Assembly: GCA_045628585.1 (NCBI GenBank)
Contig: JAZQPN010000256.1
Span: forward strand, 1-49,664
Length of the DNA stretch: 49,664 nucleotides
Reading direction: 5' to 3'
Source of the DNA: Bacteroidales bacterium
Lineage (GTDB): Bacteria; Bacteroidota; Bacteroidia; Bacteroidales; F082
Part shown: in pieces, positions 2,451 to 18,900 of the stretch
Layout: every line of letters begins with the position of its first letter
How positions within the stretch are numbered: the first letter of the stretch is position 1
Notes under the pieces: generated by a model
Databases searched by the model: none
What the model was told of the DNA's origin: nothing
What the model saw: only the letters and a program-made list of their open reading frames with translations
Translations under genes and position numbers: made by a program

Positions 2451-5400
2451 TTAAATAATAATAATCTTTTTCGTCAATACTTCGCCCGTCCCCATCGTAA
2501 TGACAACCGTATAAGTGCCAGTTGTACGAATCGGATCCAGTTCTATTGGGAAACGGTGTGGCTTGAATGACTGAACGAGAACGCCATTCAAGTTATAGAC
2601 TTCGACCTTGAGGCCGCGTTTCTGCTCCACACTGAAAGGATAAAACAAAGTGACTTTATCACTTCTATTGGCTGGTACTGGGCTAACTATCAATTCATTC
2701 TGCATTTCATAACTGTTTATCTTGTAAGTGACAATGCTATCGCAACCGTATTCGGTCACAAAATGCAAGACATAATCGCCTGGGCCGTCGAACACAATAC
2801 TGTCAAGCTCGAATGGGAAATCCAAGGCTATGGCTTCCTTCTGGTATTCGTAGGAAGGATTGACTGTCAACTGCAGTTTTACAATGCTATCATTTCCATT
2901 GTCATTGGTCAGTTCACGGAAATAGCTACCAGTCTCATTGGCACGGAAACCATTTTCGAGATAATAATTGCCTTGGCAAATCTCAGCCTCGATCAAATAA
3001 TCGTAATAGGTGTCAAATTTGAAGATATAAGGATTATCCATCGATCCGAATGTGGAATTCGGGGTAAAGACAACCTTTTGGTCAGTCAACACACGTCTTT
3101 CCTTACCCCGTTGATGATCATAGAGGCGGAAAGTAATGGCGTCACCTTCTAATCCACTGACATTCAAAAAGATTCGATAGGAATCAAGAGATTCTATGTA
3201 GATAGCACGTCCACTGCCACGTTTTTCAGCCTGACAAAATGCACCGACTTCAAGGGTATCCGAATAAATCAAGCGGTCGTCGAGTTGAATCATACCGACA
3301 AAAGTGATGTTTTCTGCAAAACGATGCTCATCAGATTTCCAATAAATTTCCGGCAAAGGCAAAGGTTCGCCGAAGCTGCGCGTCTGGTGCTGATATGTCA
3401 ATACTATGTCATCTGCATTTTTCGACATATACATATAGCCATTGCCAGGCTGCATCATGCTCAAGGTGCCATACCAACAGCCCAACGATTCGTAATAGTA
3501 AGCGAACTGATTCTGCGATTTCAAGATACTTCCGTCGGCGGGTGTCACATTCAACCCCGACATGGCGGTTGACACAGGGACCTGATAAGCCGATGGATAC
3601 GATATCCAGTTCCAGCCTGGACTTAACGGGATGTCGACATCCTGGCTGTCGACATAACAGCCAGTCAAATCAACCCGCTGGTGATCTGACACATTAATCA
3701 TATACATCGAAATGTTGTCGATTTCCGACAGATTGCCATACCAGTCTTCGCCACTACGCTGAACGAACTGTTGCTTGGACTTGATAAGCATGCCGTTTTC
3801 GCCCAACGCGTTTTCGAGGTTTTCCAAGCCACGGCCATTGCTTTGATCGATGTAGGTGGAATACCATCCCCATCCGGCAGCGAGGTCGTTGGATTGCGTG
3901 CCGTAGTCAGGATTGAGGCGAATGTTGACCGTAATCGTACTGTCGCAGCTGAAACGGTTTAGATAATGCCGTTGGAAAGTAGTGTCACATGAGAAAGGCC
4001 AACTGTTATAGATGAAAGGCAAATCCGTTGGACACACCAAATAGTTTTCCTCTAATGCATAAGCAGGATGTACCGTCAAAGTGAGGCGTGCAGTATCCAT
4101 GCAACGGTCAACGTTTTCCGTGTATTTTTCCAGATTCAGAACGATATTGTCATGCATATCCCAGCCCTGAGTAAGGGAGGATATGCTGTCGGCAGTGAGT
4201 CCGAAACCATTTTCCAAATAGTCGTCCCCAAAGCATATAGCATCATCGTAATAACTCGTTATTGGCTTAACGGCCTTGGAGATGCGCAAGCACACCACGC
4301 TATCGCAGCCCAAAGACGTGCTCAGCGTATCGTAAAAGACACCTTCATCGAAAAGGTAACTGCCGCCAAACATAACGCTTTCGCCTGGGCAAAGACGTGC
4401 ATAAATCATTGTCGGTTCTGGCTTCTCGGCAGGAGTGGCCGTCAGAACGAAATCCTTATCCAGATAGGAGTTCGTGATATCGGTGCTTCGCACACGAATA
4501 GTGAACGAATAGTTGCCCCGGCAGCGGAAGTCGTAATCGGTCACAAGGCGGTTGTCCTCAATGCGGAACAAATTGTTGTCGTTGTCACGGCTATTGACCA
4601 ATGAATATGTGAAGATGTCGGTATTCTGGTCGTCGAAAGTCGTAAACTCACCAATTAAGGTGCCGATAGCATCGTTTTCGGCAAAAACCGAATTGGAAAG
4701 CGTGATGTCGTATGGCGGTTTGCCTAATGAGTAATATAGTTCGGCAACGGTTTTGAAAGCCTCGCGATTTCCGACGTTATCAATGGCAAGTCCGATGAAC
4801 TCGAAATTGGTGCCGCCCGTCAGCGAATAGTAGAAAACGCTATCGGCGAAGACATTGGACACTAACTGATAGCCGGCATAATCGATGTTGGCATACAATT
4901 CGATATATTTGACACCCGAACCTCCGGTATCGTCAAGAGCGTCGAAACCAATGGTCAGCGATTTGGTCAGGAAAGCTCCCGTCGTGTCGCAAACAATGGC
5001 TGAAGTTGGCGCCACGACATCGAATGTGTTGACATAGGTGTTAGTAGGCACGACTTCGTTTTCATCGAAGATGATTTGTGCTTGTTCAGCGACAGTGTCG
5101 CCAGTGTGCAGGCCTGTGGCAGGCATGATGTTGAAAGTCACATAGCCTTCGCCGTTGCCAATCAAGGTATCGTTGACAGGCAGGAATCCGATACTGTCAA
5201 TTGGGGCAAGACCAGTAGCGGGATCAATGGACTGGAAAATCCAGAAAGCCTCGTCCGCGTCAACATCGATGCCAGCAGTGACATCGAGCCATACGCCGAG
5301 CGAGTCGGCCAAATCGATGCGCTGGTTGTAGTTGTTGGCAAGAGGCGGGATCTCGAAAGTATATTCGCCGAAGCCGAAGTTGCCCAGGCGGAAGCTGTTG

Positions 5401-7247
5401 CGGACGGCGTTGGGGTGAATCGGGCAAGTCACCTTGACGCGAGCAGCGGCAGCGGTGGCAAATTCGGGATCGTTCTCGAAGCGGATGGTGTAATTCATCT
5501 TGTCGCTGGCATTGACGAACTTTTCATCGCCGAAACCATCAGGGCCGAAGATTTCGTTGGGGTCGTTGGAGCACCACAGCGGCCTTTCATAGAGCTGCTT
5601 TGTGACTTCCTTGAATAATTCGCCACGCTCCCCTTCATCTGATTTCTTGTAAATACGATATGTGATTTCGTCAGTGACGTTTTTACCGAGAGCCATCCGC
5701 TGCAAACCGTGGCTGTATTGTTCATTGTACAAATCATAGTGCCACATCATCGTTTCGTAGGCGCCAAAACCACCCATGTACGGATTATAGGCTTCATACG
5801 GGTCGAACTGATGAATTGTTGGCGTAAACAGTTTACCTATGGGCGTTTCCCATTCATCTGTAAAATGGCTCACCGCCTCATCATATTCGGAATATGGATG
5901 GTATAGATTATCGCCATAATCAATGGCCAGCTGTGAATAAAACTCACCATAAATGTTGTTGCTATAAAGAGTGATGCCAGGAGTGACGGAAAGATCCATG
6001 GATGCCGTTGAAATCTTGAATGTTTTACTAAAGATGTATTTCGTATCATCCCAATTACATCTTGGATAAATTTTAAATTCATAATCGCCCGCACAAAGAT
6101 TTTCAAAATAAAACACATTTTCAGGGTCGACATGCGTGATTGTTTCGTTTTCAGACACATTGGTCAACTCAACCTTGTACCATTTATTCAAATCATCTAT
6201 CGGACAAGAAGCGCAAGTATCGTAATCATATACACTCGGATGAGTGATGGTCAATGTTCCATCACACGCACCTTCCAAAGATTCATTAGTCCAATCGAAA
6301 GTAAATTCTTCCAAATCCTCTCTTGTCTTCATGAAAAACTGATTAATAGATGTCTCAATATCCGGACACTCAGGATCGCTGACCGTATAGTGCCGAATCA
6401 CCAAATATCCATTCTGAGTTGATTCATCGCTAACAGCCAGTGACAAATTAGACGCATTGCAAGTATAATCAATGAAAACACCGTGATTTTGCAATTCGGC
6501 AACAGTCCTGTAGGCAGCTGGCAAATTATCTTTGAAGATTTCACCCTTGAGGGATCCCAAAAGTTTCAGTTTTTTGTTAAGCCGGATATATTCATGAATT
6601 GTTCCCAGATCACCACGACCCACGAGGGCAAGACACTTATCCGTGATGGTGTATGCGCGGTCGAAAATGGTAAAACAGCCAGCAGGCTCGCCCCACACCT
6701 CTGTAGTAACGGAGAGTTCCAGCTGCTCATCCTTTCCACAGGAAGAAACGATTTCAAATCCTTTTGCCCGCAAACCATCTATCGTCAACTCATCTGGCAA
6801 ATCTTCTTTGAAACAACCTGTCAATTCCGTATCGAAAGAACCAGAAACAGTGGGCTCATTAGATTCATCATAAGTCAAAACCGTAATGTTTTCGTGGAAA
6901 GTACATACTGTGGTAATATCCTCACAACGAAGCAGAACTACGTATTCCCTCTGGAAGCGGAAAGAGCAGTCGTTTTCTTCCAAAGGGGAATTTGTGTAAT
7001 GAGCAGAAACAGGATTACCATTACAATTGTATTGTGCAATCAGATCATCAATTTCGGAATAGCCGCGAAGGTATGTCAATATGGCTTCCGTATTGTTTTC
7101 AGGGTCGAAAGCATTAAATGACGTTTCACAGCTGGTTTCAAAACGGTCCATGATGTCAAAAGTCCACTCAACTACTTGACCGTAAGATTGAACAAATAGT
7201 AGTTGTAGTCCTACCAGCAAAAACAAGCATCGTCTATTCATAAACAT
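2451..7247 (-). CDS. Large multidomain T9SS-secreted surface protein, 1,598 aa
   Basis: Intact ORF with signal peptide MFMNRRCLFLLVGLQLLFVQSYG. It contains a cadherin-like repeat, five Cys-bracketed mini-domains, one FRLYDH module and a C-terminal CTD (VSPVPANRSDKVTLFYPF..LKVEVYNLNGVLVQSF..GTYTVVITMGTGEVLTKKIIII). Gap to the upstream gene is 19 nt. Confidence 0.92.
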   Translation of the reverse strand: MFMNRRCLFLLVGLQLLFVQSYGQVVEWTFDIMDRFETSCETSFNAFDPENNTEAILTYLRGYSEIDDLIAQYNCNGNPVSAHYTNSPLEENDCSFRFQREYVVLLRCEDITTVCTFHENITVLTYDESNEPTVSGSFDTELTGCFKEDLPDELTIDGLRAKGFEIVSSCGKDEQLELSVTTEVWGEPAGCFTIFDRAYTITDKCLALVGRGDLGTIHEYIRLNKKLKLLGSLKGEIFKDNLPAAYRTVAELQNHGVFIDYTCNASNLSLAVSDESTQNGYLVIRHYTVSDPECPDIETSINQFFMKTREDLEEFTFDWTNESLEGACDGTLTITHPSVYDYDTCASCPIDDLNKWYKVELTNVSENETITHVDPENVFYFENLCAGDYEFKIYPRCNWDDTKYIFSKTFKISTASMDLSVTPGITLYSNNIYGEFYSQLAIDYGDNLYHPYSEYDEAVSHFTDEWETPIGKLFTPTIHQFDPYEAYNPYMGGFGAYETMMWHYDLYNEQYSHGLQRMALGKNVTDEITYRIYKKSDEGERGELFKEVTKQLYERPLWCSNDPNEIFGPDGFGDEKFVNASDKMNYTIRFENDPEFATAAAARVKVTCPIHPNAVRNSFRLGNFGFGEYTFEIPPLANNYNQRIDLADSLGVWLDVTAGIDVDADEAFWIFQSIDPATGLAPIDSIGFLPVNDTLIGNGEGYVTFNIMPATGLHTGDTVAEQAQIIFDENEVVPTNTYVNTFDVVAPTSAIVCDTTGAFLTKSLTIGFDALDDTGGSGVKYIELYANIDYAGYQLVSNVFADSVFYYSLTGGTNFEFIGLAIDNVGNREAFKTVAELYYSLGKPPYDITLSNSVFAENDAIGTLIGEFTTFDDQNTDIFTYSLVNSRDNDNNLFRIEDNRLVTDYDFRCRGNYSFTIRVRSTDITNSYLDKDFVLTATPAEKPEPTMIYARLCPGESVMFGGSYLFDEGVFYDTLSTSLGCDSVVCLRISKAVKPITSYYDDAICFGDDYLENGFGLTADSISSLTQGWDMHDNIVLNLEKYTENVDRCMDTARLTLTVHPAYALEENYLVCPTDLPFIYNSWPFSCDTTFQRHYLNRFSCDSTITVNIRLNPDYGTQSNDLAAGWGWYSTYIDQSNGRGLENLENALGENGMLIKSKQQFVQRSGEDWYGNLSEIDNISMYMINVSDHQRVDLTGCYVDSQDVDIPLSPGWNWISYPSAYQVPVSTAMSGLNVTPADGSILKSQNQFAYYYESLGCWYGTLSMMQPGNGYMYMSKNADDIVLTYQHQTRSFGEPLPLPEIYWKSDEHRFAENITFVGMIQLDDRLIYSDTLEVGAFCQAEKRGSGRAIYIESLDSYRIFLNVSGLEGDAITFRLYDHQRGKERRVLTDQKVVFTPNSTFGSMDNPYIFKFDTYYDYLIEAEICQGNYYLENGFRANETGSYFRELTNDNGNDSIVKLQLTVNPSYEYQKEAIALDFPFELDSIVFDGPGDYVLHFVTEYGCDSIVTYKINSYEMQNELIVSPVPANRSDKVTLFYPFSVEQKRGLKVEVYNLNGVLVQSFKPHRFPIELDPIRTTGTYTVVITMGTGEVLTKKIIII
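2454..2696 (-). other. T9SS type-A CTD of the 1,598-aa protein
   Basis: aa ~1518-1598 contain P.PA....., V.VYN..G..V and G.Y.V motifs and end in KKIIII. Boundaries are approximate. Confidence 0.75.
2712..2990 (-). repeat. Two Cys-bracketed mini-domains (aa ~1420-1512 of the 1,598-aa protein)
   Basis: CQGNYYLENGFRANETGSYFRELTNDNGNDSIVKLQLTV and LDFPFELDSIVFDGPGDYVLHFVTEYGCDSIVTYKI. Pattern: C..(Y/F)..G......G.Y.......(G)CDS.V.L.L.V. Confidence 0.6.
3012..3350 (-). other. Shared FRLYDH module, copy 2 (aa ~1300-1412 of the 1,598-aa protein, internal position)
   Basis: YWKSDEHRFAENITFVGMIQL..TLEVGAFCQAEKRGSG..GDAITFRLYDHQRGKE..MDNPYIFKF. I verified the FRLYDH codons at 3114-3131. Confidence 0.7.
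3903..4400 (-). repeat. Three Cys-bracketed mini-domains (aa ~950-1115 of the 1,598-aa protein)
   Basis: CPGESVMFGGSYLFDEGVFYDTLSTSLGCDSVVCLRI; CFGDDYLENGFGLTADS..VDRCMDTARLTLTV; CPTDLPFIYNSWPFSCDTTFQRHYLNRFSCDSTITVNIRL. Confidence 0.6.
4437..4715 (-). other. Cadherin-like repeat (aa ~845-937)
   Basis: PPYDITLSNSVFAENDAIGTLIGEFTTFDDQNTDIFTYSLV..NNLFRIEDNRLVTDYDFRCRGNYSFTIRVRSTD follows the cadherin-repeat consensus (v.En...Gt.vg.l...D.d......ysl....f.i....l.t.....y.l.v...D). Confidence 0.6.
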
Positions 7248-7266: not shown

Positions 7267-8601
7267 CTAAAAATCTTGACATGCATCCCCCACTCCATTG
7301 CAATCTTCGTCTTCCTGGCCTGGGTTGAATACGTCAGGACAATTATCCCACATATCGGGGACGCCGTCACCATCCTGATCTTCGTCGCACACATCGCCGA
7401 TGCCATCGTAATCTGAATCCAACTGATCCGGATTTGCATTCAGTGGGCAATTGTCGCAAGCATCTCCATATCCATCATTATCACTATCAACCTGATTCGG
7501 ATTGTTGATAAAGGGACAATTATCCAGTTCATTAGGCCAGCCGTCACCATCCATATCGGGATCCAGTTCATTAAGCAAGCCGTCACCATCAATATCAGGA
7601 TCACACACGACGCCAGTATAGATCAAATTAATAACAAGACTGTCTCCGACATAAGTACTATCATACTCTATCACATAATCATTGGACGGATCGAACTGAT
7701 AAGGGCAATAGTCACACACGTCGCCAACACCGTCATTATCGGCATCAGCCTGGTCTGGATTGTAAGTATCCATGCAGTTGTCACAATGGTTGCCTACACC
7801 ATCCTGATCAACATCCTGTTGTCCTGGATTCGGAAAAGTAGGGCAGTTGTCACATTCATCTCCATAGCCGTCAGCATCAGTGTCTTTTTGCAACGGATTG
7901 TATATGCACGGACAGTTGTCATTCCAGTTGCTTATTCCGTCACCGTCCATGTCATCATCGACGAGCAAGGTAGATGCGCTGTAATTCGGCAGATATAAAT
8001 ATAGGTTGGTCAACACAGAGGAACTGTCTACAGAAGCTGCCATGCGCCAATTGCCATCAACTTCCTCAAATGAATAATATGTGTTGCATAAAACTGTATT
8101 GTCATGGTAGGCATCAACAAAAACGAAAAATCGTTCGCCTTGATGGAAGCCAAGCAACACATCGAATTTGTTGATGTCGTGAATCATGCCGTGCCATTTC
8201 TGATATAAGCTGTCAACAGCCAGGATTTCGGCAATTGCCGATGCATCCTGCTGACGGTACAGTTCACTCACCTGACGAGGATTTTCGCCACCATAAAACT
8301 TCAAGAGACGGGCCAACAATGCCGTCGGAGAATTTGTCTCAGCTGCGTTTTGTGTTCCGCCAGAACACCTCACCCATCGATTTGAGCCATTATTCATTGG
8401 AGGAATACCATCCAATTCATACAGCATATACGAATTGCAGATATAATGCTGACTATCATCATCAAACACGGTCATCGAATCCGCCTTGACGTTTATGGCG
8501 ATGTTATAATGTTCCTCAATGTATGGAGGGAAACAATCAGTTTGGGCAAAAGCCATGGCCGAAATTGCCAATAGCAATGAAATAAACAAGTATCTTTTCA
8601 T
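7267..8601 (-). CDS. Secreted thrombospondin type-3 repeat (calcium-binding) protein, 444 aa
   Basis: Intact ORF with signal peptide MKRYLFISLLLAISAMAFA. The C-terminal half is built from D.D.DG..D..DNCP units. It ends ...NGVGDACQDF with no T9SS CTD or OmpA domain. Confidence 0.9.
   Translation of the reverse strand: MKRYLFISLLLAISAMAFAQTDCFPPYIEEHYNIAINVKADSMTVFDDDSQHYICNSYMLYELDGIPPMNNGSNRWVRCSGGTQNAAETNSPTALLARLLKFYGGENPRQVSELYRQQDASAIAEILAVDSLYQKWHGMIHDINKFDVLLGFHQGERFFVFVDAYHDNTVLCNTYYSFEEVDGNWRMAASVDSSSVLTNLYLYLPNYSASTLLVDDDMDGDGISNWNDNCPCIYNPLQKDTDADGYGDECDNCPTFPNPGQQDVDQDGVGNHCDNCMDTYNPDQADADNDGVGDVCDYCPYQFDPSNDYVIEYDSTYVGDSLVINLIYTGVVCDPDIDGDGLLNELDPDMDGDGWPNELDNCPFINNPNQVDSDNDGYGDACDNCPLNANPDQLDSDYDGIGDVCDEDQDGDGVPDMWDNCPDVFNPGQEDEDCNGVGDACQDF
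7270..7962 (-). repeat. About 10 thrombospondin type-3-like Ca-binding repeats
   Basis: DDDMDGDGISNWNDNCP, DTDADGYGDECDNCP, DVDQDGVGNHCDNCM, DADNDGVGDVCDYCP, DPDIDGDG, DPDMDGDGWPNELDNCP, DSDNDGYGDACDNCP, DSDYDGIGDVCDEDQDGDGVPDMWDNCP, DEDCNGVGDAC. Confidence 0.85.
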
Positions 8602-8609
8602 ATTCCGAT

Positions 8610-9929
8610 TTAATTATTTTCTGTAACATTCTTTAAAGTTGGATATATCAGCCACTTTTGGACATCAATATTGAATCCTATGACACGAGCTTCAATTTTT
8701 GCATAAACCTTAATGACATTTTCCCAATCAGGCTTAATATAAGGCGATTTTGGCAAACAATTCAGCGACAATTGGGCATCGGTCTGAATGAATCCGCCTG
8801 CACTTAAAATATCCCTATTGATCACAGCAACAATGACACCAAAATCAAATGACAAATAAAATGGCAATGAAAAAGAATTGGAAAAACAACTTTCCTTTCC
8901 AATATCAAAAAACAAAACCGGGAACTTCGCTCCTAACTTAGCTTCACCAGAAACCATAAGGCCTCCGACGCCAGGAATGGAGAGATAAGGCACTGGAACA
9001 TCAACCGTAACTCCAAAAATGACAATGTCAGCAGACACCTGGGTATGAAGACGTGTTGAAAGACAGTCGTTGCAACACTCACCGTATAGATTAAAGTCTA
9101 AATCAACATTTACCAAATCAGGGTCAATCGGTCGGACAAGTGGCGAGCATTGTTTAACACGTGCCAAAACATCAGTGTATGAGCCCATCAAATCACCCCA
9201 ACGCTTAATCTCGCGTATAGTTTGTGCTGCTTTCTTCAATTCTTTTATTCCTTGGACACAATTCTTTTTTGTATCCGAATTAAACTGTAGACTCAAAGAC
9301 ATTATGTCGATGTTCTCATTAACCACCCAAATTTTGGTCAAATAATCATCACTATTATATACCTTACCATCTTTTTCAATATGGTATGTCACAGTTTCCA
9401 TATCAATACCATTTCGGGAATTTGGAACGGTATGCTGGTCAAGGACAATGTAAGGCTCGTATCCATCGGGCAAGGTCTGGAACACAAAATCACTTTCCGA
9501 AAGCGGATCGCCTGGATGCCAACATTCGCTATTGACTCGGAGTACATTGATAATCGGTTGCTCCAAAACGTGAATGACATAATTGTAACGGACTGTCGAA
9601 TATTTCGACACATTAACGAAGCTAAACAGATAATCACCCGGAGAATAGAATCGGACACTAAGTGTCTGACTATGCACTGTATTATGATCCAAAACAATTT
9701 CAACGTCGCCTAAATACTCCCAACGCATCTGAGAATCCGTGACATGTTGGAAGGAATAGATGTCCTTCTTCATGCAATCGGTTCCACTATATTGGTCGTT
9801 AACCTCAAAAACATAATAGCGGTCCCATTCATAGGTGGTGGTGGCGTTCTGAGTCCATCCCCATTTAAAAGCAAGCAGAGCCAAAGTCATCAGGATGCAT
9901 CTAAAAAATCTGTTCAAAGTATTAGTCAT
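8610..9929 (-). CDS. Orphan secreted protein, 439 aa, no family recognised
   Basis: Intact ORF starting 15 nt after the giant gene stop and ending 8 nt before the next gene. It has an N-terminal hydrophobic signal-like segment (FFRCILMTLALLAFKWGW). The C-terminal half is rich in alternating hydrophobic, beta-like stretches. I recognise no motif. Confidence 0.75.
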   Translation of the reverse strand: MTNTLNRFFRCILMTLALLAFKWGWTQNATTTYEWDRYYVFEVNDQYSGTDCMKKDIYSFQHVTDSQMRWEYLGDVEIVLDHNTVHSQTLSVRFYSPGDYLFSFVNVSKYSTVRYNYVIHVLEQPIINVLRVNSECWHPGDPLSESDFVFQTLPDGYEPYIVLDQHTVPNSRNGIDMETVTYHIEKDGKVYNSDDYLTKIWVVNENIDIMSLSLQFNSDTKKNCVQGIKELKKAAQTIREIKRWGDLMGSYTDVLARVKQCSPLVRPIDPDLVNVDLDFNLYGECCNDCLSTRLHTQVSADIVIFGVTVDVPVPYLSIPGVGGLMVSGEAKLGAKFPVLFFDIGKESCFSNSFSLPFYLSFDFGVIVAVINRDILSAGGFIQTDAQLSLNCLPKSPYIKPDWENVIKVYAKIEARVIGFNIDVQKWLIYPTLKNVTENN

Positions 9930-9944
9930 CTTCTTTCCCTTTCA

Positions 9945-12900
9945 TTAAAACTGCAAAACATTTTTCAAGAATTTATATGCTTCAATTTCGTCGTTCACGT
10001 CGATGCAGAAGAGCATTTCGGCATTGGTGAAGCAGTAAATCGTGATAGTATGACGCACGCCTGGCCGCAAGATGCCGTCGGGTTCGTCTTCGAACTGGTC
10101 GGTCGGAATCTCAAGCACGGTGCGGTGAATGTTGAGTTCGCCACGGCGCAAGCCAATCCACGATTCGCCCAAGCTGCGCAGCTGAATCTTAGGTGCCACT
10201 ATGTCGTTGGTGCCCAAGTTTCCGTATTCGAGCGTCAGGCAGCAGTAACGGTTGGCACGCAAGCCTTCAGGAATGATGAGGTTGGTGGCCAGCAGTTCAG
10301 GCTCACCCTCAACCACCGTGAAACAGTCGTTCAGATAAGTGTATCCGGCGCAATAGTTATAGGCTTCGAGCGAATAGACACCTAACTCGGCGCCCTTCAG
10401 GTTGAAGGTAGCGAACACCTGATTGAAGTTGACATAACGCAAGGTGTCGGCATAAATCGAGATGGTGTCTGTGCCATTTGACTTGAACAGACGTACCGGC
10501 ATGTCATGGCGGAACTTGGAGCCGATGATCTTCACCGTCACATTGCCCGTGTTGCCGCCCTTGTTGGGCGAGATGCTGCGGATTTCGAATGGCAGAATCT
10601 GAGCCTCAACCGTCACTTCCTGGGTCTCGTTCACTGGGCTGAAGCCGTAGAAGCTCACGCCGTAGTAGCCGGCCTCGGTACGTGGAATGAAGAGTTCGGA
10701 ATTGCCTGACATCTGGCCATCGGTTGAGAAGTCGTAGTTGAGGTTGTCGCCAATGTCGTTGTGCAATACATAAATGTTGTTCACGGCACCCATGAGCGAG
10801 TCAGGCGTGACGATGTAAACGCGGGCTGTCTCGCTGATGGCTCCAAGCACCTCGAGCTTAAAGTCCTTATATTCGAGTTTCTTCAACTCGAAGGTCTCAG
10901 GATGGTCGAAATAAAGCACCGGCAATTCCACCTTGAACGGCGACGACGAGCAGCCGATATTGTTGTCCTCGTCCGCTTCATAGAAGGTGTTGCGGGCATC
11001 GGTGATGACGATAATGTAGTAATTGCCTTCATGCAGGCCAGCGATATTGGCCGTGAGGCTATGCGTCTCCGAGGTGACAATAGGCAGGTTCATGTCGTAT
11101 GACACCGAGCCAAGGAGCTTGTCGTTGACATCGAACTGAGTATCAGTCGACAGATAAACCACATCGCTGCAACCGACACCGGTAGCCGTGTTCGGGCCAT
11201 TGTTCTTCACTGTCCAAGTGATGGTGATGTCGTCACCCGACATGATGGTTGTCGGATGTTCGATGCTTTCCACGACCAAATCGACAGGAGGATTCAATGT
11301 CAACACGACAGGAATCATGGTCAGGTTGTTCTCGTAATCCATCTCAAACATTGCCTTTGACTGGTTGGCATAGATGTAGACGGCATAGTTGCCAGACTGC
11401 GGCACCGGCACGACGAATGAAGCCGTGTCGATGTAATAATCGCCTGGTGACAAGGTGTCGGAACGGGTTACATTCGATGCCACGGTACCATTATTAAAGG
11501 TGTTCTTTGAGAATCTGACCTGATCGTTCCAGGTGCCGCAAGTAGGTCCGTCTCCGATGTTGGTCACGCGGTACGAGACGAGAATCGGTTGTCCACAGGC
11601 GGGGAATTCGGTCAGGACCGTCACATCGCTCACCTCTAAGTTCGGGACAGGAATGCTCGAAATGTTGACTTGCAATGCACCCACGTTGTTTTCACTGTTT
11701 TCGTCAGGGTTGGCACTATTCACATCAGTAACGGCCAAGATATAGTAGGCACCCAGTTTGCCATAAGGAATGACAACTTGCACGTTCTCTGTATAACTGC
11801 CGTTACCAGGCAGGACATCATTCTGGATGATCTCGCCAAGCATGATGTCATCGACATCCCACGACGCATCGGTGGAGAGGAATATCTTGTCAGTCCAATG
11901 GCTAATCGTAGAGCGAGTTCCCAAATTGCTGACCGTATAGGATACATTGACACGTTCGTTCCATTCCACTTCATCGTTGCCATTGATATCGGTAACGGCG
12001 AGGTCAAGGCTGTAGGCTGTCAACGGGACAGATGCACTCTGGTAAGTGTTGTTGTATTCACCCACATACTCGAAGATAGCATCGGTTGCATCGGCGATGA
12101 TATAGATATAATAGTTGTCAGCTGGAAGGTTAGCTGGAAGAGTGAACGTTTGGGTAACGGAATAACTGCCACCGATGGCCAACGGCCCGTTCTTAGTAAT
12201 CGAACCAAGCAAGGTGGAAGTCTCCGTATTGAACTGCGGATTGTTGGAGATGTAAACAGCATCCGTCCAGCTTTCCGAAGCCAAAACGTCACGGATTCCC
12301 TGGTTGCCCATTTCGTATGAGACATGAATAGTGCCGCCTGCAACAGCTTCGCTTGACGTAGAAGCGTCGAGGAAATAGAGGTCAGGATAAGGCGACAAGG
12401 TTACGGTCAGCATATCCGAAACGATGTAGTCTGTATTTACATTATCGCCTTCGCAAATGGTCTCACCATCGTTGACATTGACATAGATGTAATACAAGCC
12501 TTCGGCATCAACCGGCAAGGTTGCATATTGCGTAATCTGGATGGTGTCGTTAATGTCAAGGTCGAATGGGAAGGTTTCGAGTTTCAGCCGTTCAGCCGTG
12601 ATAAAGTTCAGCTCAGGCGAAAGGCCAAGATAGAGGCCGAGATCAATCTCGCCATAATACTTCGCACTACCATTGTTTGTCACCTTGTAGGTAACGGCAA
12701 ATGTTTCGCCGGAATTAAGCTGCGCCGGAGCTTCTATGTCGAAGGCCAAGAAGTCAGGATTGCTCAGCAAAATTGTGGAAGAAAGGTTGTTGTTGGTGGC
12801 ATCCTTGTCGTTGTAAGGTGTAACTGTCACCTTGATGGTGTTTTCCTCATAGAAATTGCAAGGAATGCTGATTGGCACCGTACCGGACAAAGTGTCGCCC

Positions 12901-15900
12901 ACAGGGAGATTGACATGGGTCAAGACCGTGTCGCCGACTTGGGCATTGTTGAAATTAGCTGTCACCATGAAACGTCTGCAATCAATGAAGTCGCCACTAC
13001 CGACATTCACTGCCTTATAGTTAATATGCGAACGGTCTTCAGAAATTTCGACACTCAGCATCTTCAAGTCTGGTTGCACCACATATACGGAATCCTTGGC
13101 CACGTTATTGTCGTTGCATCCATATTCAAAGATGGCGTCTTCAGAGTCGGTTTTGGCATAGAAATAATACCAACCTTCGACAGCATTTTCTGGGACATAA
13201 GCGAAGCCCTGTCTGTGATAATTGCCAATGTATTTCTTCAATTGCCGAGTAAGGTAGTTTTGCTTTTCGCGTTCAGCCTGCGCAACCGCATTCTGATACC
13301 TAATGCTGTCGTTATGTGAAGCATGTTCGCTCAGCGTGTCAGGAATGGCATAATGACATTCAGCCCATTGACGCACCAATGTGTCGATGGCAATCAGCAT
13401 GTCGGGCAGATAAAGTATGGTGTCATTCGTAAATGAAGTGATCAAAGTACTGTGCGCCACATTGAACGTATCGATTTGCGAGAAATACAGCTTGTCATTC
13501 CATGCCTTGCCACGGAACGGCGGGATGGTGCCGCAGGTATCAACGGTACCTGTCGATCCAGGCAAGACCTTGCAAGGCTCGAGACCGACATTGGTGACTC
13601 TGAAGTAAACCGGATAAACAGCATTCGGCGCCAGGGTATCAGCGACAGGATGCGAGCCTACCACAAGCGAATCAATAATCAAGTCAGGTGTCGGAGGCGG
13701 AACGATATGACAGCTGTGTTCCGAAACCAACGACATGTTGTTGTACTCGAACAGCGATTCATAGACCTGATTCCTTGAATCGGTCCTGACAAAGAAATTA
13801 TAATCGCCGAATTTGCGTTCATCGGTGATGAAGCGTGCCACTCTCGTAATGGTATCATTGATTCCCATGGCGATGGTATCGGCAAACGTGCCAATCTGGA
13901 TGGCATTGGTATTGAAGACTGAATCCATCGTCATATAGACGACATCGGTAACAAGAGTCGGTTCAAACGCAGCTCCGCCTTGGTTGATGAGATTCCACGA
14001 AATGGTAATCGAGTCGCCGGCCTGATGATCGTAAGGCGAAATCACGTTTCTTGCCACCAAATCAGGAATTGGCGGAATGGCCACGTCAATGTACTGGTAG
14101 AAGAAGTTGTCGCAACCATGTATTTCCTCAAACGACTCTGGCGAGCATGAGCCTTCCATGTAGCCTTCAGGATCGCCGGGGTCGTGAGGAATGTACGGCG
14201 GATTGTATGGGTTCGGGAACACGCCGCCATACGGAGTGAAGTCGAGCGACATGCCGCTGTAAGGCTTCCAGTTGGAAAGCACAAAGAGGAACACGCTGCC
14301 ATACATGTCGTCAGGCACCGTTATGTTGACGCTGTTGGTGTATTGCTCGCCTGGATTCAAGGCCATCAAGTTAGGAACACTAGCCATAAGGAATGACTCT
14401 GCCGGCGTGTCGGTGAAGCTGACACGTTCCCAGTTGACAGGATACGACAGCACGATGTAATCGTTCCACTCCTCGCCTACCGGCGTCGGGCCAACGCCAT
14501 CGTTCTTCACGGTCCATTCAACAGTCATCACCTGTCCCGTCTGGGCGAATGAATGGTCCATACTGGTGACATGCAAGTCAGGCAAAGCCGTGTTGAAATA
14601 CATGGTGTCGCTTTCGATGGTAGCACATTGCTTGTGAGCAACAACCTTCCAAGCATAGTAAGCCGTTTCATACGGGTCTACTTGACGCAGATAGACAGGA
14701 GGTTCAGGATCGCAACCCCAGCCTGGGCAATGGTCGTAAACGCCATAGCCTTGGTAATTGGACTGATACAAATCGACAGTCGTATAGTTGCGTGTCAGAC
14801 CGTACGCCACAGGGAAGTCAGGTATTGGCAAGCCGTTGCCATGGTCGGTACGCCACAAGTACAGGTCGTATGATTCGGCGCCGTCAATGTAATCCCAGCT
14901 GAAATAGATGTGGCTGTTCGATTCAAGGGTCTGGTCTTGCAATGGCACCAGTCCTTCTTCAACGAGATAATTGGTCCATACGATGGAGTCAGGGTCGCAC
15001 AGCGTGTTGAAATACTTCGGCACGCAATACGAACTCATTTCATCGCCGCCACACATCGAGCGCACCTTGACGAAATATCCCAGATTCGGATGCAGGTTCT
15101 GCAACTGGATGTAGTTGGTGTCGACTGCAACAGTCTGGACATCGCTGCCATTGGAACGTGCGTAATAAACCAGCCACTGGGTTTCGTCGCCGCCTGGTGT
15201 CCAAGTGACGTCAGCCGTGGTGTAGGTCAGCAGTTCTTCAGGAACCTGAAGGTTGGTCGGCACCTTGCAGTTGATAGGCGTCTGTTCGTATGCGCCCATA
15301 TCGATGAAGCCGCCACGTATACGCTCGTTGCCGTCGAGGTCGTAATCGCCAGGAGCAGCGTAGTCGTTGCTACCTACATCGATGCACATGGAGTTTTCCA
15401 GCAGGCGGAAGTCGCCATCGTCAGGATTGGTGAAGCGGGCGTAATTCAAGGTGGCATCCGTGCCGTCATTAGCCGATTCAATCACGATGTTGCCTGTGCC
15501 CGAAGGCATCACTTCGTCGCGTTCGATGGCGTTGTAGGTCAATGTGCCAGCGTTTGGCGTAGTGCCTCTGATGTTACTCACCAAAGCACCCGTCTTGTTG
15601 CCCCAGATTACATTGTTGGTGACGGTATTATAAAGCGTTCCGCCAAAGGCATCCGAACCGCCAAGATTATAAATGCCGCCGCCGTTTTTCGAATCACCGC
15701 CAGAGGTGATGTCAGCCGTGTTCTTTACGACAGTGCAATTACGCATCTTGTTGACATTATAGGCACCGCCACCCTTCACTGCCGAGTTACTGCTGATTTC
15801 GCAATCGTACAATTCATTGCCGCCCATGATGCCGCCGCCATTTCGGTCAGCGCGGTTGCCCTTTATGAGACAGTGCGAAATGATTGAACCCGATTCCTTA

Positions 15901-18900
15901 ATGGCACCGCCGTCAATCATGGAATAATTGCCGACAAATTCGCTGTGATAGACCTTACAACCCGAAATGTTCAAGGCACCGCCAGAAATGCTAAGACTGC
16001 CTTCATCAACGCAAGTATTGTTGTAGAACTTACAGTTATCGACATAGCATTTCACCAAATTAGCAGCACCACCCGAACGGTTGGAACGGCCATTCTGGAA
16101 GACAAAGCCATCAATATAATCGTAATTGTTGCCATTGCTTTCATCGTGACGCATAATCTGCTGCAAGTTATGGCCATCCAAGAAGGATGTGTTGGTCTCG
16201 AAATCACGGAGGGCAAGGTCGTATGTGGCGGGTTCATCACCGGCGAAACTACCGTAAATGCTCACGCCCTTCGGCAAAATGAAGGCCGGGAACTGAGGCG
16301 TTCCATCACCGTGATAGCTGCCAGCCGCCACCCAGATGACCGGTTTCGGACTCATCAGCGAAGCATGGTCGAGGGCATATTGCAGGTATGGCGTTGCATC
16401 GGCCCACGAAGAACCGTTCATATCGCCAGCACCATTTTGCGTGACATAGATGATATTGTTTGCATCAGGGGTGATTTCAAAGTCTTGGTCGTATGGTGAT
16501 TCGTAAGCACCCATGTCGACCGTATACTGACGCACACGCGGATTATGCGACAAATCGTATTCGCCATTCACGTAAGCGTTATTACCATGACCGATACAGA
16601 CGGAGCCTTCCATTAATGTCCAGTCGCCGCCTTGATAATCACTGCCAGCCGCAATGCTTGGTTCAGCAAACATCGGATAATTCACATCGTCGGAACCTTC
16701 GTTTTCGCCATTCAAAGTGATGTTGCCTATGCCCGACATGCCGCCTTCGATAGCAGAATAGGTCACATCGCTATCAGCGAAGACATTTTCAGCGGTTGTT
16801 CTTGCCGTGAAGAGGTTGCATGGCAAATTGTTGCCAACCTTGTTGCCCCAAACGATGGAGTTCTTCACCGTATAACTGCCAGCCAAACCGCCGCCATTGA
16901 CATCCGAATAGTTGTTGACAATAGTCGAATTGACGAAAGTGCCACTGTAAGCCGCACCGCCGCCGCTGGTATTGCTACGGCAAACTATAGCAGAGTTATT
17001 GGCCAACAAGCAGTTATTGAACGTGATGTTGCCATAAGAGCCGCCGCCGCCATAATAGCAGTCTTCAGCCTTGCAATTGCGGATAATGGAATTTGACACT
17101 GTCACATTGCTGGCCGCCTTGACGATACCGCCACCACCGTTGGAACCGCTCAAAGCATGGCAATTTTCAACAATACAGTTGCGCAAATCGCCCTTCTGCA
17201 TTCTTACGCCACCGCCGTCGTTCTTGTAGACGAAACCGTTCCTGATGGTCAAGCCGTCGTAAATGGCACTGTGAAGTTCCTCAATTTGCTTATACTTGAA
17301 GAAAGTGCTGTGTGCCTGATGCAAGGTGCGCTGAATGTTCTGACCGTCAAGAATGGTCTGATGTGCCACAAGGTCACGTTCATCAAGGTCGTAATCGTAG
17401 GTTTCGTTGCCTGCAAAACCGCCATAAAGGTCAATGCCATTCAAGGCAACGAAAGCATCGACGTAAGGCCATCCGTTGCTGGTGTAGGTGCCGCCTGCAA
17501 TCCAGACTTTCGGATGATTGTCGTCATCGCCTGCAAAATTGATGGCCAATTGCAAATCAGGAATTGCATTTTCCCAAGAGTCGCCCGACATATCGCCGCC
17601 ATGGTTGTTGACATTCACATAGATGATATTGTGGGCATCAGGTTCGGCATGATATCCGTTGACGAAGTTGCTTTCATAGGCACCAATGTCGATGCGGTCG
17701 TTCTTCAGACGTGCATTTGAGAGACTGTCCAAATCGTGGGTCAAAGTGTAGGTCATGCGCTCGCCGTGGTTGGCAAGGATTGAGCCATCGGCAAAATGCC
17801 AATCGCCGCCGCCGTAGTTGGCTCCTACATTTTCGGAAGGCGAAATGAATTGCGGAGCGAAGATGCTTGAACCCGTATTGGCAGCCGTCAAATTGATGTT
17901 ACCGATGCCGGCGCAACCGCCTTGGACGGCGCAATAGCGCATGTAAATCGGCACGTTGGAAGCCGACACTGCCACCTGCTGGGTGTTGAGCAAAGTCTTG
18001 TTGCCCCACAACACGCAGTTGATGAACTCATTGTTACTGCCACTGTTCACGCTATAGACGCCGCCGCCCAGATTATAGGAGAAGTTGTTGACCATAGTGC
18101 AATTCAGCAACTGACTTTGGACTGTGGAATTGTCGATATACATACCACCACCGAAAGAGTTGTCAGTCAAAGCACTGTTGTTGGCAATCAAGCAGTTGTT
18201 GATGGTTGCATTTCTGCCGAAAATACCTGCGCCACGGCGTTGCTGATTAGCGGCAGACGTGTTATCGCAAAGATTGTTATGGATATGGCAATAAGTCAAG
18301 GTTGAAGACGAGCAGTAGGCACCGCCGCCATCGCTGAGTGCGGTGTTGCTATAGATGTCGCATTGCGTGATTTCGGAACGGTTGTCTGCATAAACGCCCG
18401 CGCCCTTGCCGCCCTGGTTATTATAAATCTTGCAGTTCTGGACAGTGACAAAATTCTTGACATACACGCCGCCGCCGTTACCCGTAGAATAGCCATCGCG
18501 AATGACAAAGCCATCAATAACAGCCTTGTTCACTTGGCTGAAAGAAGATTCGTTGCCATAGTTGCCGACGACGCGCTGGCAATGGCTACCCGTCAAAACC
18601 GTACTATCGACACTGAAATCACGGGCATCCAAATTAACATTCATGACTTCGTTTCCATGGAAACCGCCATAGATGTTCACATTAGGTTTCAGTTGGAACG
18701 CTTGCGACGAAGTGCCGTTTCCAGCGTATGTGCCTGCTGCCACCCAAACCTGTCCCGGACCATACTCAGCAACATCATTGCATGCCCTATTGATAGCCGT
18801 CTGGATGTTATCCATGGCATTTTCCCAAGAACGTCCGTCCTTAGTACCAGAGCCCGTAGGAGTCACATAATAGATATGTCTGATATCAAGATGCAGGCTC

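What the first reader, a model, noticed from the sequence alone, without database searches (positions are those of the whole stretch)
9948..10304. The giant protein ends without any recognisable sorting or anchoring signal while its neighbours have T9SS CTDs
The final ~120 aa (..EGEPELLATNLIIPEGLRANRYCCLTLEYGNLGTNDIVAPKIQLRSLGESWIGLRRGELNIHRTVLEIPTDQFEDEPDGILRPGVRHTITIYCFTNAEMLFCIDVNDEIEAYKFLKNVLQF) look like the start of one more CARDB-like unit followed by a unique tail. They do not match four known signal types: a type-A CTD (no P.P / G.Y.V... pattern), a type-B gliding CTD (no FTPNGDG.ND), an autotransporter barrel, or a lipobox. Three neighbouring proteins carry textbook type-A CTDs. How a ~1-MDa protein crosses and stays on the outer membrane is therefore open. 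Options are a novel CTD class, piggy-backing on the CTD-bearing partners, or dependence on the downstream orphan protein.
Basis: partly seen in the sequence, partly recalled or inferred. Interest (0 to 1): 0.65.

Follow-up and report, generated by a model that had tools for sequence, protein, structure and literature searches.

The report
Conserved end-domain linking giant protein to partner
The 1-MDa surface protein really has no known secretion tail; it ends in a conserved, undescribed domain that in other bacteria is fused to the protein encoded next door, so the neighbouring proteins that carry the type IX secretion signal probably hold it, and perhaps carry it out.

Summary
ORF 9945..38876 (-) encodes 9643 aa and ends ...KNVLQF. 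No type A, B or C T9SS CTD model matches the tail, even at E<=10. The ORF is not truncated: all 13 homologues with this region, about 80 genome loci and 149 of the 150 best cluster representatives stop at the same point.

The last ~115 aa are a complete 7-strand beta-sandwich. It belongs to an undescribed family (890 clusters at E<=1e-3) that always closes a CARDB-repeat - PPC - IPT module.

In 66 of 77 Bacteroidota loci the next gene, 0-70 nt (372 in one) away, encodes an RHS/YD-shell protein (DUF6531-RHS-DUF7619). It has its own signal peptide and usually a type A CTD. In the window's clade the next genes are D, a TSP3 protein and B. B shares the DUF7619 region and carries the CTD.

In Planctomycetota the same tail is internal and continues in frame into DUF6531-RHS-DUF7619. 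I therefore read the tail as the junction of a split teneurin-like "stalk + head" system, not as a sorting signal. The signal sits on the partner.

Docking, co-export and anchoring through the partner are inferred, not shown. A fourth CTD class is not excluded.

The parts
9945..38876 (-). Giant ORF, 9643 aa. Order of parts: Sec signal peptide, N-terminal domain, beta-helix regions, 12 stretches matching choice-of-anchor Q, fn3, CARDB repeats, PPC-like, IPT-like, tail domain.
38808..38876 (-). Signal peptide MRLIMRYMVLAVMAVVLGNSAFC|QKG. It reads as a signal peptidase I site with Gln at +1 (Bacteroidetes Q-rule). It is not a lipobox, because Phe sits at -1.
   Evidence: Sequence. Q-rule from PMC5837995. 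A, B, C, D, I and J in the window also have Q at +1.
10959..14579 (-). CARDB repeat array, residues 8100-9306: 7 strong and 3 weak copies.
10641..10940 (-). PPC-like (pre-peptidase C-terminal-like) beta-sandwich; limits approximate. Conserved in all homologues. Pfam PPC is seen only in relatives.
10311..10586 (-). IPT/TIG-like domain, residues ~9431-9522, with invariant GGNTGNVTV motif.
9993..10298 (-). Tail domain proper: a 7-strand beta-sandwich with one short helix, residues ~9527-9628. Conserved motif (E/G)P.GILRPG..(H/G)TI.IY. Undescribed family.
9948..9992 (-). C-terminal amphipathic helix NDEIEAYKFLKNVLQF (pLDDT 58-76). Present in most of the Bacteroidales subclade only.
9942..9947 (-). 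Tandem stop codons TAA TGA. D starts 15 nt after TAA, in the same frame.
8610..9929 (-). D, 439 aa: signal peptide, PKD-like domain, second Ig-like domain, helical linker and a beta-rich C-terminal part with a CC motif. It occupies the position that RHS holds in other lineages. Small, fast-evolving family with no Pfam or NCBIfam model.
7267..8601 (-). C, 444 aa: thrombospondin type 3 repeat protein with no OmpA domain. Conserved in this position in L001, L003 and L015.
2451..7247 (-). B, 1598 aa. Residues 553-844 (window 4716..5591) hold the DUF7619 region, 44% identical to the post-shell part of the RHS partners. The type A CTD is at residues 1522-1597 (window 2457..2684).
189..2438 (-). A, 749 aa, with a sub-threshold type A CTD-like end (residues 701-747).
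39096..41051 (-). H, 651 aa: InlB B-repeats and a type A CTD at residues 584-650 (window 39102..39302).

Best explanation
The last ~115 residues are not a sorting signal of any known class. They form a complete beta-sandwich domain from an undescribed family. This domain is the final element of a conserved CARDB(n)-PPC-IPT-tail module.

That module is the 'stalk' half of a teneurin-like / RHS system. In Planctomycetota one polypeptide runs stalk - tail - ~110-aa linker - DUF6531 plug - YD/RHS shell - DUF7619. In Bacteroidota the gene is split immediately after the tail, and the second half has its own Sec signal peptide and usually a type A T9SS CTD. In the window's Bacteroidales clade the shell has been replaced by D, a TSP3 protein and B, and B keeps the DUF7619 region and the CTD.

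Proposed mechanism:
1. The giant protein enters the periplasm by Sec/SPI.
2. Its tail docks non-covalently on the product of the downstream gene(s), D and/or B here.
3. The partner's type A CTD supplies T9SS targeting and A-LPS anchoring.
4. The giant protein ends up held at the surface by its C-terminus, with its N-terminal end distal.

Shown: absence of a known CTD; conservation and strict terminal position of the tail; invariable synteny; the fused form; CTDs on the partners. Inferred: physical docking, co-export and surface anchoring through the partner.
For: 1. No CTD is found by HMMs or by profile-profile comparison with 30 local type A CTDs (probability 0.3%).
2. The ORF is not truncated. 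All 13 homologues with this region end within about 15 aa of the same column. In all 80 genome loci read, the ORF closes ~11-18 residues after the alignment, or ~140 after its IPT part where only that aligned (two fragmentary: L060, L074). In the 150 best cluster representatives the profile match ends a median of 4 residues from the C-terminus, and within 27 residues in 149 of 150.
3. Synteny. Of 77 loci with a downstream ORF, 66 have an RHS gene 0-70 nt (372 in one) after the stop, 9 have a D-like gene, and 2 have a ~390-aa gene of unknown family followed by a DUF7619 + Por_Secre_tail gene.
4. The partners carry the signal. 28 of 42 full-length RHS partners end in a textbook type A CTD. Window B passes TIGR04183.
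5. B residues 553-844 are 44% identical to residues ~1176-1485 of the RHS partners.
6. Fused form. L086 (66% GC) and L088 (Planctomycetota MAG) carry PPC-IPT-tail-linker-DUF6531-RHS-DUF7619 in one frame. P0164 shows IPT-tail-linker-DUF6531 without interruption.
7. Bacterial teneurin-like proteins with beta-sandwich repeats (CARDB included), then a conserved beta-sandwich, plug and YD shell are described in PMC6425310.
8. There are only 1-2 tail-bearing genes per genome, each with its own partner. This is unlike a general secretion tag.
Against: - No direct evidence of binding between the tail and any partner.
- In the window the RHS shell and DUF6531 plug are absent, so the docking surface would have to be D or B. 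D shows no similarity to the RHS N-terminus.
- Hitch-hiking of a CTD-less protein through the T9SS has, to my knowledge, no precedent, and I found none in the searches I ran.
- Each fused contig has one frameshift. They lie at different places and the assemblies are probably nanopore, so the single-polypeptide reading rests on combining contigs plus P0163, P0164 and P0168.
- The strict C-terminal position across Bacteroidota, with no domain ever added after it, is also what a secretion signal would show.
Confidence: 0.5

Rival explanations
1. The tail is a fourth, family-specific class of T9SS C-terminal signal. The translocon or a dedicated shuttle recognises it directly, much as type B CTDs work with cognate PorP/SprF proteins. 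The downstream gene product would be its cognate anchor rather than its carrier.
For: - Strictly C-terminal in 149 of the 150 best representatives.
- All 80 genome loci are Bacteroidota.
- The carriers have Sec signal peptides.
- Predicted 7-strand beta-sandwich of roughly CTD size.
- A cognate gene lies immediately downstream, as with sprB/sprF.
Against: - The same domain is internal, fused to RHS, in Planctomycetota, which I take from general knowledge to lack a T9SS.
- It occurs only behind one passenger type (CARDB-PPC-IPT) and only 1-2 times per genome.
- No sequence or profile similarity to type A, B or C.
- No solved CTD among the 50 best fold matches.
- No PorP/SprF-like gene nearby.
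Confidence: 0.2
2. The tail is only a structural cap of the stalk. The giant protein is not displayed through the T9SS at all: it stays periplasmic or leaves by vesicles or lysis. The synteny would reflect co-regulation only.
For: No signal is detectable. The fold is a generic beta-sandwich.
Against: - A cap would not need to be invariably terminal, so well conserved (417 clusters at E<=1e-10), and always followed by the same partner gene.
- The fusion with the partner in another phylum argues for a physical link.
- CARDB, beta-helix and choice-of-anchor Q domains are typical of surface proteins.
Confidence: 0.12
3. The ORF is 3'-truncated by a recent nonsense mutation and has lost its CTD.
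For: D is in the same reading frame, 15 nt downstream.
Against: - There are two tandem stops (TAA TGA), and D has its own start codon and signal peptide.
- All homologues, from 27 to 75% identity, stop at the same point.
Confidence: 0.01

Closest known systems
Bacterial teneurin-like YD/RHS proteins (Jackson et al. 2018; review PMC6425310)
   Same: A stalk of beta-sandwich repeats (CARDB explicitly listed), then a conserved beta-sandwich just before the plug, then plug, YD shell and Rhs-associated core. The Planctomycetota relatives of the tail have this order in one polypeptide.
   Different: - In Bacteroidota the protein is split into two genes right after the tail.
- No NHL propeller is detected.
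- The plug is DUF6531, not an FN-plug.
- The tail gave no TTR or teneurin fold match in the top 50.
- The window itself has no YD shell; D, C and B stand in its place.
T9SS type B CTD proteins with cognate PorP/SprF partners (SprB/SprF; PMC9143113)
   Same: A giant repetitive surface protein whose C-terminal domain is thought to work with a dedicated protein encoded next to it. Few copies per genome.
   Different: No match to the type B model. The partner is an RHS protein or D, not a PorP-like barrel. The tail is internal in a non-T9SS phylum.
T9SS type A CTD (TIGR04183 / PF18962; structures reviewed in PMC11285876)
   Same: Extreme C-terminal beta-sandwich of about 100 aa on a Sec-exported Bacteroidota protein.
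   Different: No HMM or profile similarity. Restricted to one passenger architecture. Not among the top fold hits.
Carrier-cargo pairs of RHS toxins: TcA with TcB-TcC, and T6SS VgrG/PAAR with Rhs
   Same: An RHS cocoon encoded next to, and delivered with, a large partner. Some RHS partners here have short variable C-termini like polymorphic toxins.
   Different: No homology of the giant protein to TcA or VgrG. The export route is Sec plus (predicted) T9SS. The window lineage has lost the cocoon.
TANFOR polymorphic toxins of Bacteroidetes (PMC7073777)
   Same: Large Sec-signal proteins without a CTD, encoded next to CTD-bearing T9SS substrates, with T9SS export only speculated.
   Different: No TANFOR domain in the giant protein. 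A different conserved module, at the C-terminus rather than the N-terminus.

Membership tests
T9SS type A CTD (TIGR04183 / PF18962) | Match to the family HMM at or near the curated cut-off | tested here: not met
   No hit at E<=0.1 for the last 1500 aa and none at E<=10 for 13 tails. hhalign against 30 local type A CTDs gives probability 0.3%.
T9SS type A CTD (TIGR04183 / PF18962) | Located at the extreme C-terminus of a protein with a Sec signal peptide | tested here: met
T9SS type A CTD (TIGR04183 / PF18962) | Compact Ig-like 3+4 beta-sandwich of seven strands (PMC11285876) | tested here: inconclusive
   The AF2 model has 7 strands plus 1-2 helices. Foldseek top 50 are generic beta-sandwiches with E>=0.012 and no CTD entry.
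T9SS type A CTD (TIGR04183 / PF18962) | T9SS-dependent secretion, removal by PorU and A-LPS attachment | not testable with these tools
   Needs experiment.
T9SS type B CTD (TIGR04131 / PF13585) | Match to the family HMM | tested here: not met
T9SS type B CTD (TIGR04131 / PF13585) | Cognate PorP/SprF-like gene adjacent | tested here: not met
   D, C, B, A and H give no PorP/SprF hit.
T9SS type C CTD (NF033708, ChiA-like) | Match to the family HMM | tested here: not met
   Only H gives a sub-threshold hit (24.5 bits against a cut-off of 40). The giant protein gives none.
CARDB (PF07705) | Match of the tail to the CARDB HMM or to the protein's own CARDB repeats | tested here: not met
   No Pfam hit for the tail. 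hhalign against the protein's own repeats aligns only 28 residues, E 0.03.
Bacterial teneurin-like YD/RHS protein (split form) | Stalk of beta-sandwich repeats followed by plug, YD shell and Rhs-associated core, in the same polypeptide or the next gene | tested here: not met
   Met in relatives (66 of 77 loci). The window's D, C and B contain no DUF6531 or RHS repeats. Only the post-shell DUF7619 region survives, in B.
Bacterial teneurin-like YD/RHS protein (split form) | TTR-like fold of the domain preceding the plug, and an NHL propeller | tested here: not met
   No TTR or teneurin entry in the Foldseek top 50. No NHL hit in the RHS partners.
Lipoprotein / autotransporter anchoring | N-terminal lipobox with a small residue at -1, or a C-terminal beta-barrel domain | tested here: not met
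   The N-terminus is ...NSAFC|QKG, with Phe at -1 and Gln at +1, which reads as an SPI site under the Q-rule (PMC5837995). No barrel family is detected.

The most novel reading that the evidence does not exclude
[quoted passage not shown] It would do this by docking its conserved terminal domain onto a separately encoded CTD-bearing partner (RHS-DUF7619-CTD elsewhere; D/B here). This would be, to my knowledge, the first hitch-hiking substrate of the T9SS and a natural split teneurin-like system. Alternatively, the tail is a fourth class of T9SS signal.
Probability: 0.3. Interest if true: 0.8.

Novelty: new variant of a known kind. Interest (0 to 1): 0.6.

Why it matters
T9SS substrates are currently predicted by their CTDs, so a large family of giant surface proteins is invisible to that rule: at least 890 clusters at 50% identity, in gut Bacteroidales and in Chitinophagaceae, Saprospiraceae and Lewinellaceae MAGs.

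If the tail is a docking module, it shows how a signal-less protein can borrow the signal and anchor of a partner. It also gives a natural split point for studying how the stalk and head of teneurin-like/RHS proteins assemble.

The analysis also flags RHS cocoons that carry type A CTDs as likely T9SS cargo, which bears on interbacterial antagonism in Bacteroidota. The tail family deserves a family model of its own.

Tried and rejected
- Truncation or nonsense mutation: rejected. All homologues end at the same place, and the stop is a TAA TGA pair.
- Type A, B or C CTD by HMM at permissive thresholds and by profile-profile comparison: nothing.
- The tail as one more CARDB repeat: only the first 28 aa align. 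No similarity to any internal repeat by BLAST.
- PDB sequence-profile search with the tail: only chance-level hits, CueO and fibronectin monobodies at E>=0.058.
- Fold search of the IPT+tail model: dominated by antibody Fabs and uninformative.
- Fold search of the tail alone: generic beta-sandwiches, with no T9SS CTD and no teneurin TTR in the top 50.
- D as a PorP/SprF-like or known family: no Pfam or NCBIfam hit. Only a PKD-like N-terminal domain.
- D as a remnant of the RHS N-terminus: only the signal peptides align.
- The C-terminal helix as a partner-specific adaptation: not clean. L014 and L015 have D-like partners but lack the helix.
- N-terminal lipoprotein anchor: rejected from the sequence and the Q-rule.
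- Literature search for this system (T9SS + RHS/CARDB): nothing relevant in the held library.
Full report
**1. Observation**

The window carries an intact ORF on the minus strand, 9945..38876, of 9643 aa (about 1.06 MDa).

The protein starts with a Sec signal peptide...NSAFC|QKG. Phe at -1 is not a lipobox residue. Gln at +1 fits the Bacteroidetes Q-rule for signal peptidase I substrates (PMC5837995), as do A, B, C, D, I and J in the same window.

Pfam and NCBIfam find the following in the giant protein:
- 15 stretches matching right-handed beta-helix
- 12 stretches matching choice-of-anchor Q
- one fn3 domain
- an array of CARDB repeats at residues 8100-9306

No type A, B or C T9SS CTD model matches anywhere in the protein at E<=0.01. 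None matches the last 1500 aa at E<=0.1. None matches the isolated tail or 12 homologous tails at E<=10.

The neighbours do carry CTDs, but not all are textbook:
- H passes both curated cut-offs.
- B passes TIGR04183 only.
- A is sub-threshold.

**2. Not truncated**

D starts 15 nt after the giant ORF's stop and lies in the same frame. However, two stop codons (TAA TGA) separate them, and D has its own start codon and signal peptide.

The homologues settle the question:
- Thirteen of the 14 homologues found with the last 400 aa (27-72% identity; the 14th, P0014, is frameshifted) end within about 15 residues of the same alignment column.
- In all 80 genome loci read, the ORF closes ~11-18 residues after the alignment, or ~140 after its IPT part where only that aligned (L060 and L074 are fragmentary).
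- A tail-only profile (A2, 130 positions) finds 890 clusters at E<=1e-3 and 417 at E<=1e-10 among 1.84 billion representatives.
- In the 150 best of those, the match ends a median of 4 residues from the C-terminus. It ends within 27 residues in 149 of 150.

**3. What the tail is**

AlphaFold2 predicts the last 231 aa as two domains (mean pLDDT 87). The first is an IPT-like sandwich. The second is a 7-strand beta-sandwich with a short internal helix, followed in this clade by a C-terminal helix.

The tail has no relative in Pfam, NCBIfam or PDB sequences. Profile-profile comparison with 30 type A CTDs taken from this window and related loci gives probability 0.3%. Comparison with the protein's own CARDB repeats aligns only the first 28 residues (E 0.03).

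Foldseek against the PDB returns only generic beta-sandwiches: TRAP subunits, macroglobulin and transglutaminase domains, with best E 0.012 and TM<0.5. No T9SS CTD and no teneurin TTR domain is in the top 50.

In every homologue the tail is preceded by the same PPC-like and IPT-like domains and by CARDB repeats. The N-terminal parts vary.

**4. Context**

All 80 genome loci are Bacteroidota, apart from one contig labelled Bordetella that looks mis-binned:
- Nine are gut Bacteroidales MAGs (Candidatus Limimorpha and relatives; up to 75% identity to the window).
- The rest are Chitinophagaceae, Saprospiraceae and Lewinellaceae.

Of the 77 loci with a readable downstream gene:
- 66 have, 0-70 nt (372 in one) after the stop, a gene for an RHS protein. 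It has a signal peptide, a DUF6531 plug, YD repeats, an Rhs-associated core and then a variable C-terminal part.
- 9 (the Bacteroidales) have a D-like gene.
- 2 (L015, L017) have a ~390-aa gene of unknown family, followed by a DUF7619 + Por_Secre_tail gene. In L015 a TSP3 gene lies between them.

Of 42 full-length RHS partners, 28 end in DUF7619 plus a textbook type A CTD. The other 14 end in a different conserved motif. Shorter forms of about 1455 aa carry variable, toxin-like ends.

The window's layout of D, C (TSP3) and B therefore recurs outside Bacteroidales. Window B residues 553-844 are 44% identical to the post-shell segment of the RHS partners. The constant feature in most loci (about a third of full-length RHS partners lack a recognised CTD) is a downstream protein carrying DUF7619 and a type A CTD.

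**5. The fused form**

The weakest homologue, P0014, led to a 66% GC contig, L086. There the tail (profile E 1e-12) continues in the same frame through a ~110-aa linker into DUF6531 and RHS repeats, for 912 codons.

A search with the tail plus linker found 37 more fragments:
- P0164 runs IPT-tail-linker-DUF6531 without interruption.
- P0163 runs IPT-tail-linker.
- P0168 runs tail-linker-DUF6531, with the tail garbled by a local frameshift.

A Planctomycetota MAG locus, L088, carries PPC, TIG, tail, linker, DUF6531, RHS, Rhs core and DUF7619, next to a DUF1501 gene.

L086 and L088 each have one frameshift, at different positions, in what look like nanopore assemblies. Together with P0164 they support a single polypeptide.

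In that phylum, which I take from general knowledge to lack a T9SS, the tail is an internal domain. It therefore cannot owe its conservation to being a C-terminal signal.

**6. Interpretation**

The architecture matches the bacterial teneurin-like proteins described by Jackson et al. These have beta-sandwich repeats (CARDB is named), then a conserved beta-sandwich before the plug, then the YD shell and Rhs core (PMC6425310).

In Bacteroidota this protein is split right after the tail, and the T9SS type A CTD is on the second half. The most economical reading is that the tail is the junction that holds the stalk on its partner, and that the partner supplies targeting and anchoring.

This gives a consistent topology. 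The partner's C-terminus is fixed to the cell surface, through A-LPS in the case of type A CTDs. The tail is bound to the partner, and the giant protein's N-terminus is distal. This is the same N-to-C order as in the fused protein.

For the window, D and/or B must be the docking partner, because the shell is gone. D is a small, fast-evolving family (17-23% identity among members) with a PKD-like N-terminal domain. It shows no similarity to the RHS N-terminus.

**7. What is shown and what is inferred**

Shown:
- absence of known signals
- a conserved, strictly terminal domain family
- invariable synteny with a partner cluster
- fusion with the partner in another phylum
- CTDs on the partners

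Inferred:
- docking
- co-export through the T9SS
- anchoring by the partner

I found no precedent for T9SS hitch-hiking in the papers searched. The nearest parallel is the speculation about CTD-less TANFOR toxins (PMC7073777).

A family-specific fourth CTD class working with a cognate downstream protein, by analogy with SprB/SprF (PMC9143113), remains possible; I give it about 0.2. I rate a purely structural cap with no T9SS involvement lower, at about 0.12.

**8. Verdict**

This is a new variant of a known kind, namely a split teneurin-like/RHS system whose second half carries the T9SS signal. Its tail domain family has no Pfam or NCBIfam model. Interest 0.6.

Noticed in passing
window 39096-41051 (H, residues ~22-131), 189-2438 (A, residues ~1-166), 2451-7247 (B, residues ~1299-1434): A ~110-aa domain (..IGVIEINGxEQ..LEIGAFCxDECRGS..FRLYDH..) is shared by the N-termini of H and A and by the C-terminal part of B (31-39% identity to homologues). 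It also occurs twice at the N-terminus of P0089, a CARDB protein that ends in the same tail domain. This links H-like modules to the stalk.
   Followed up: partly
window 9927-9947: D's ATG is in the same frame as the giant ORF. They are separated by tandem stops TAA TGA and four codons. The operon is tightly packed, with 8-19 nt gaps between D, C, B and A.
   Followed up: yes
L018-L083, downstream ORFs (e.g. L020:8724-14636, L023:8778-14681): RHS/YD-shell proteins with a Sec signal peptide and a textbook type A T9SS CTD (28 of 42 full-length). Fourteen others end in a different conserved motif, 'WENPANWSCNSLPD...NSN..(I/V)RTL....GA.G.V..G..LT..K', of unknown meaning.
   Followed up: partly
L048:8775-13139, L057, L066, L069, L070 downstream ORFs: Shorter RHS partners (~1400-1470 aa) have about 240 aa of variable sequence after the Rhs-associated core (core end motif NNPxNxxDxxGL). 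This is the layout of polymorphic toxins, but no candidate immunity gene was looked for.
   Followed up: no
window 4716-5591 (B residues 553-844) and L002 RHS residues ~1176-1452: The homology between B and the RHS partners begins at a shared motif, DPNEI.GP.G, followed by NYTIRFEND. DUF7619 lies inside this segment.
   Followed up: partly
window 7267-8601 (C); L001:9148-10440; L003:2653-3948; L015:9616-11160: A thrombospondin type 3 repeat protein without an OmpA domain is conserved between the D-like gene and the DUF7619-CTD gene, in both Bacteroidales and a Saprospiraceae MAG.
   Followed up: partly
L025 (CALRSN020000135.1): The contig is labelled as a Bordetella parapertussis MAG but carries a typical Chitinophagaceae-type giant-plus-RHS locus. 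It is probably mis-binned or mislabelled.
   Followed up: no
window 8610-9929 (D): The profile of D-like proteins matches the PKD domains of KIAA0319L (PDB 6nz0, E 3e-6) in its N-terminal ~90 aa. The rest, including a conserved CC(N/C)G motif, has no known relative.
   Followed up: partly
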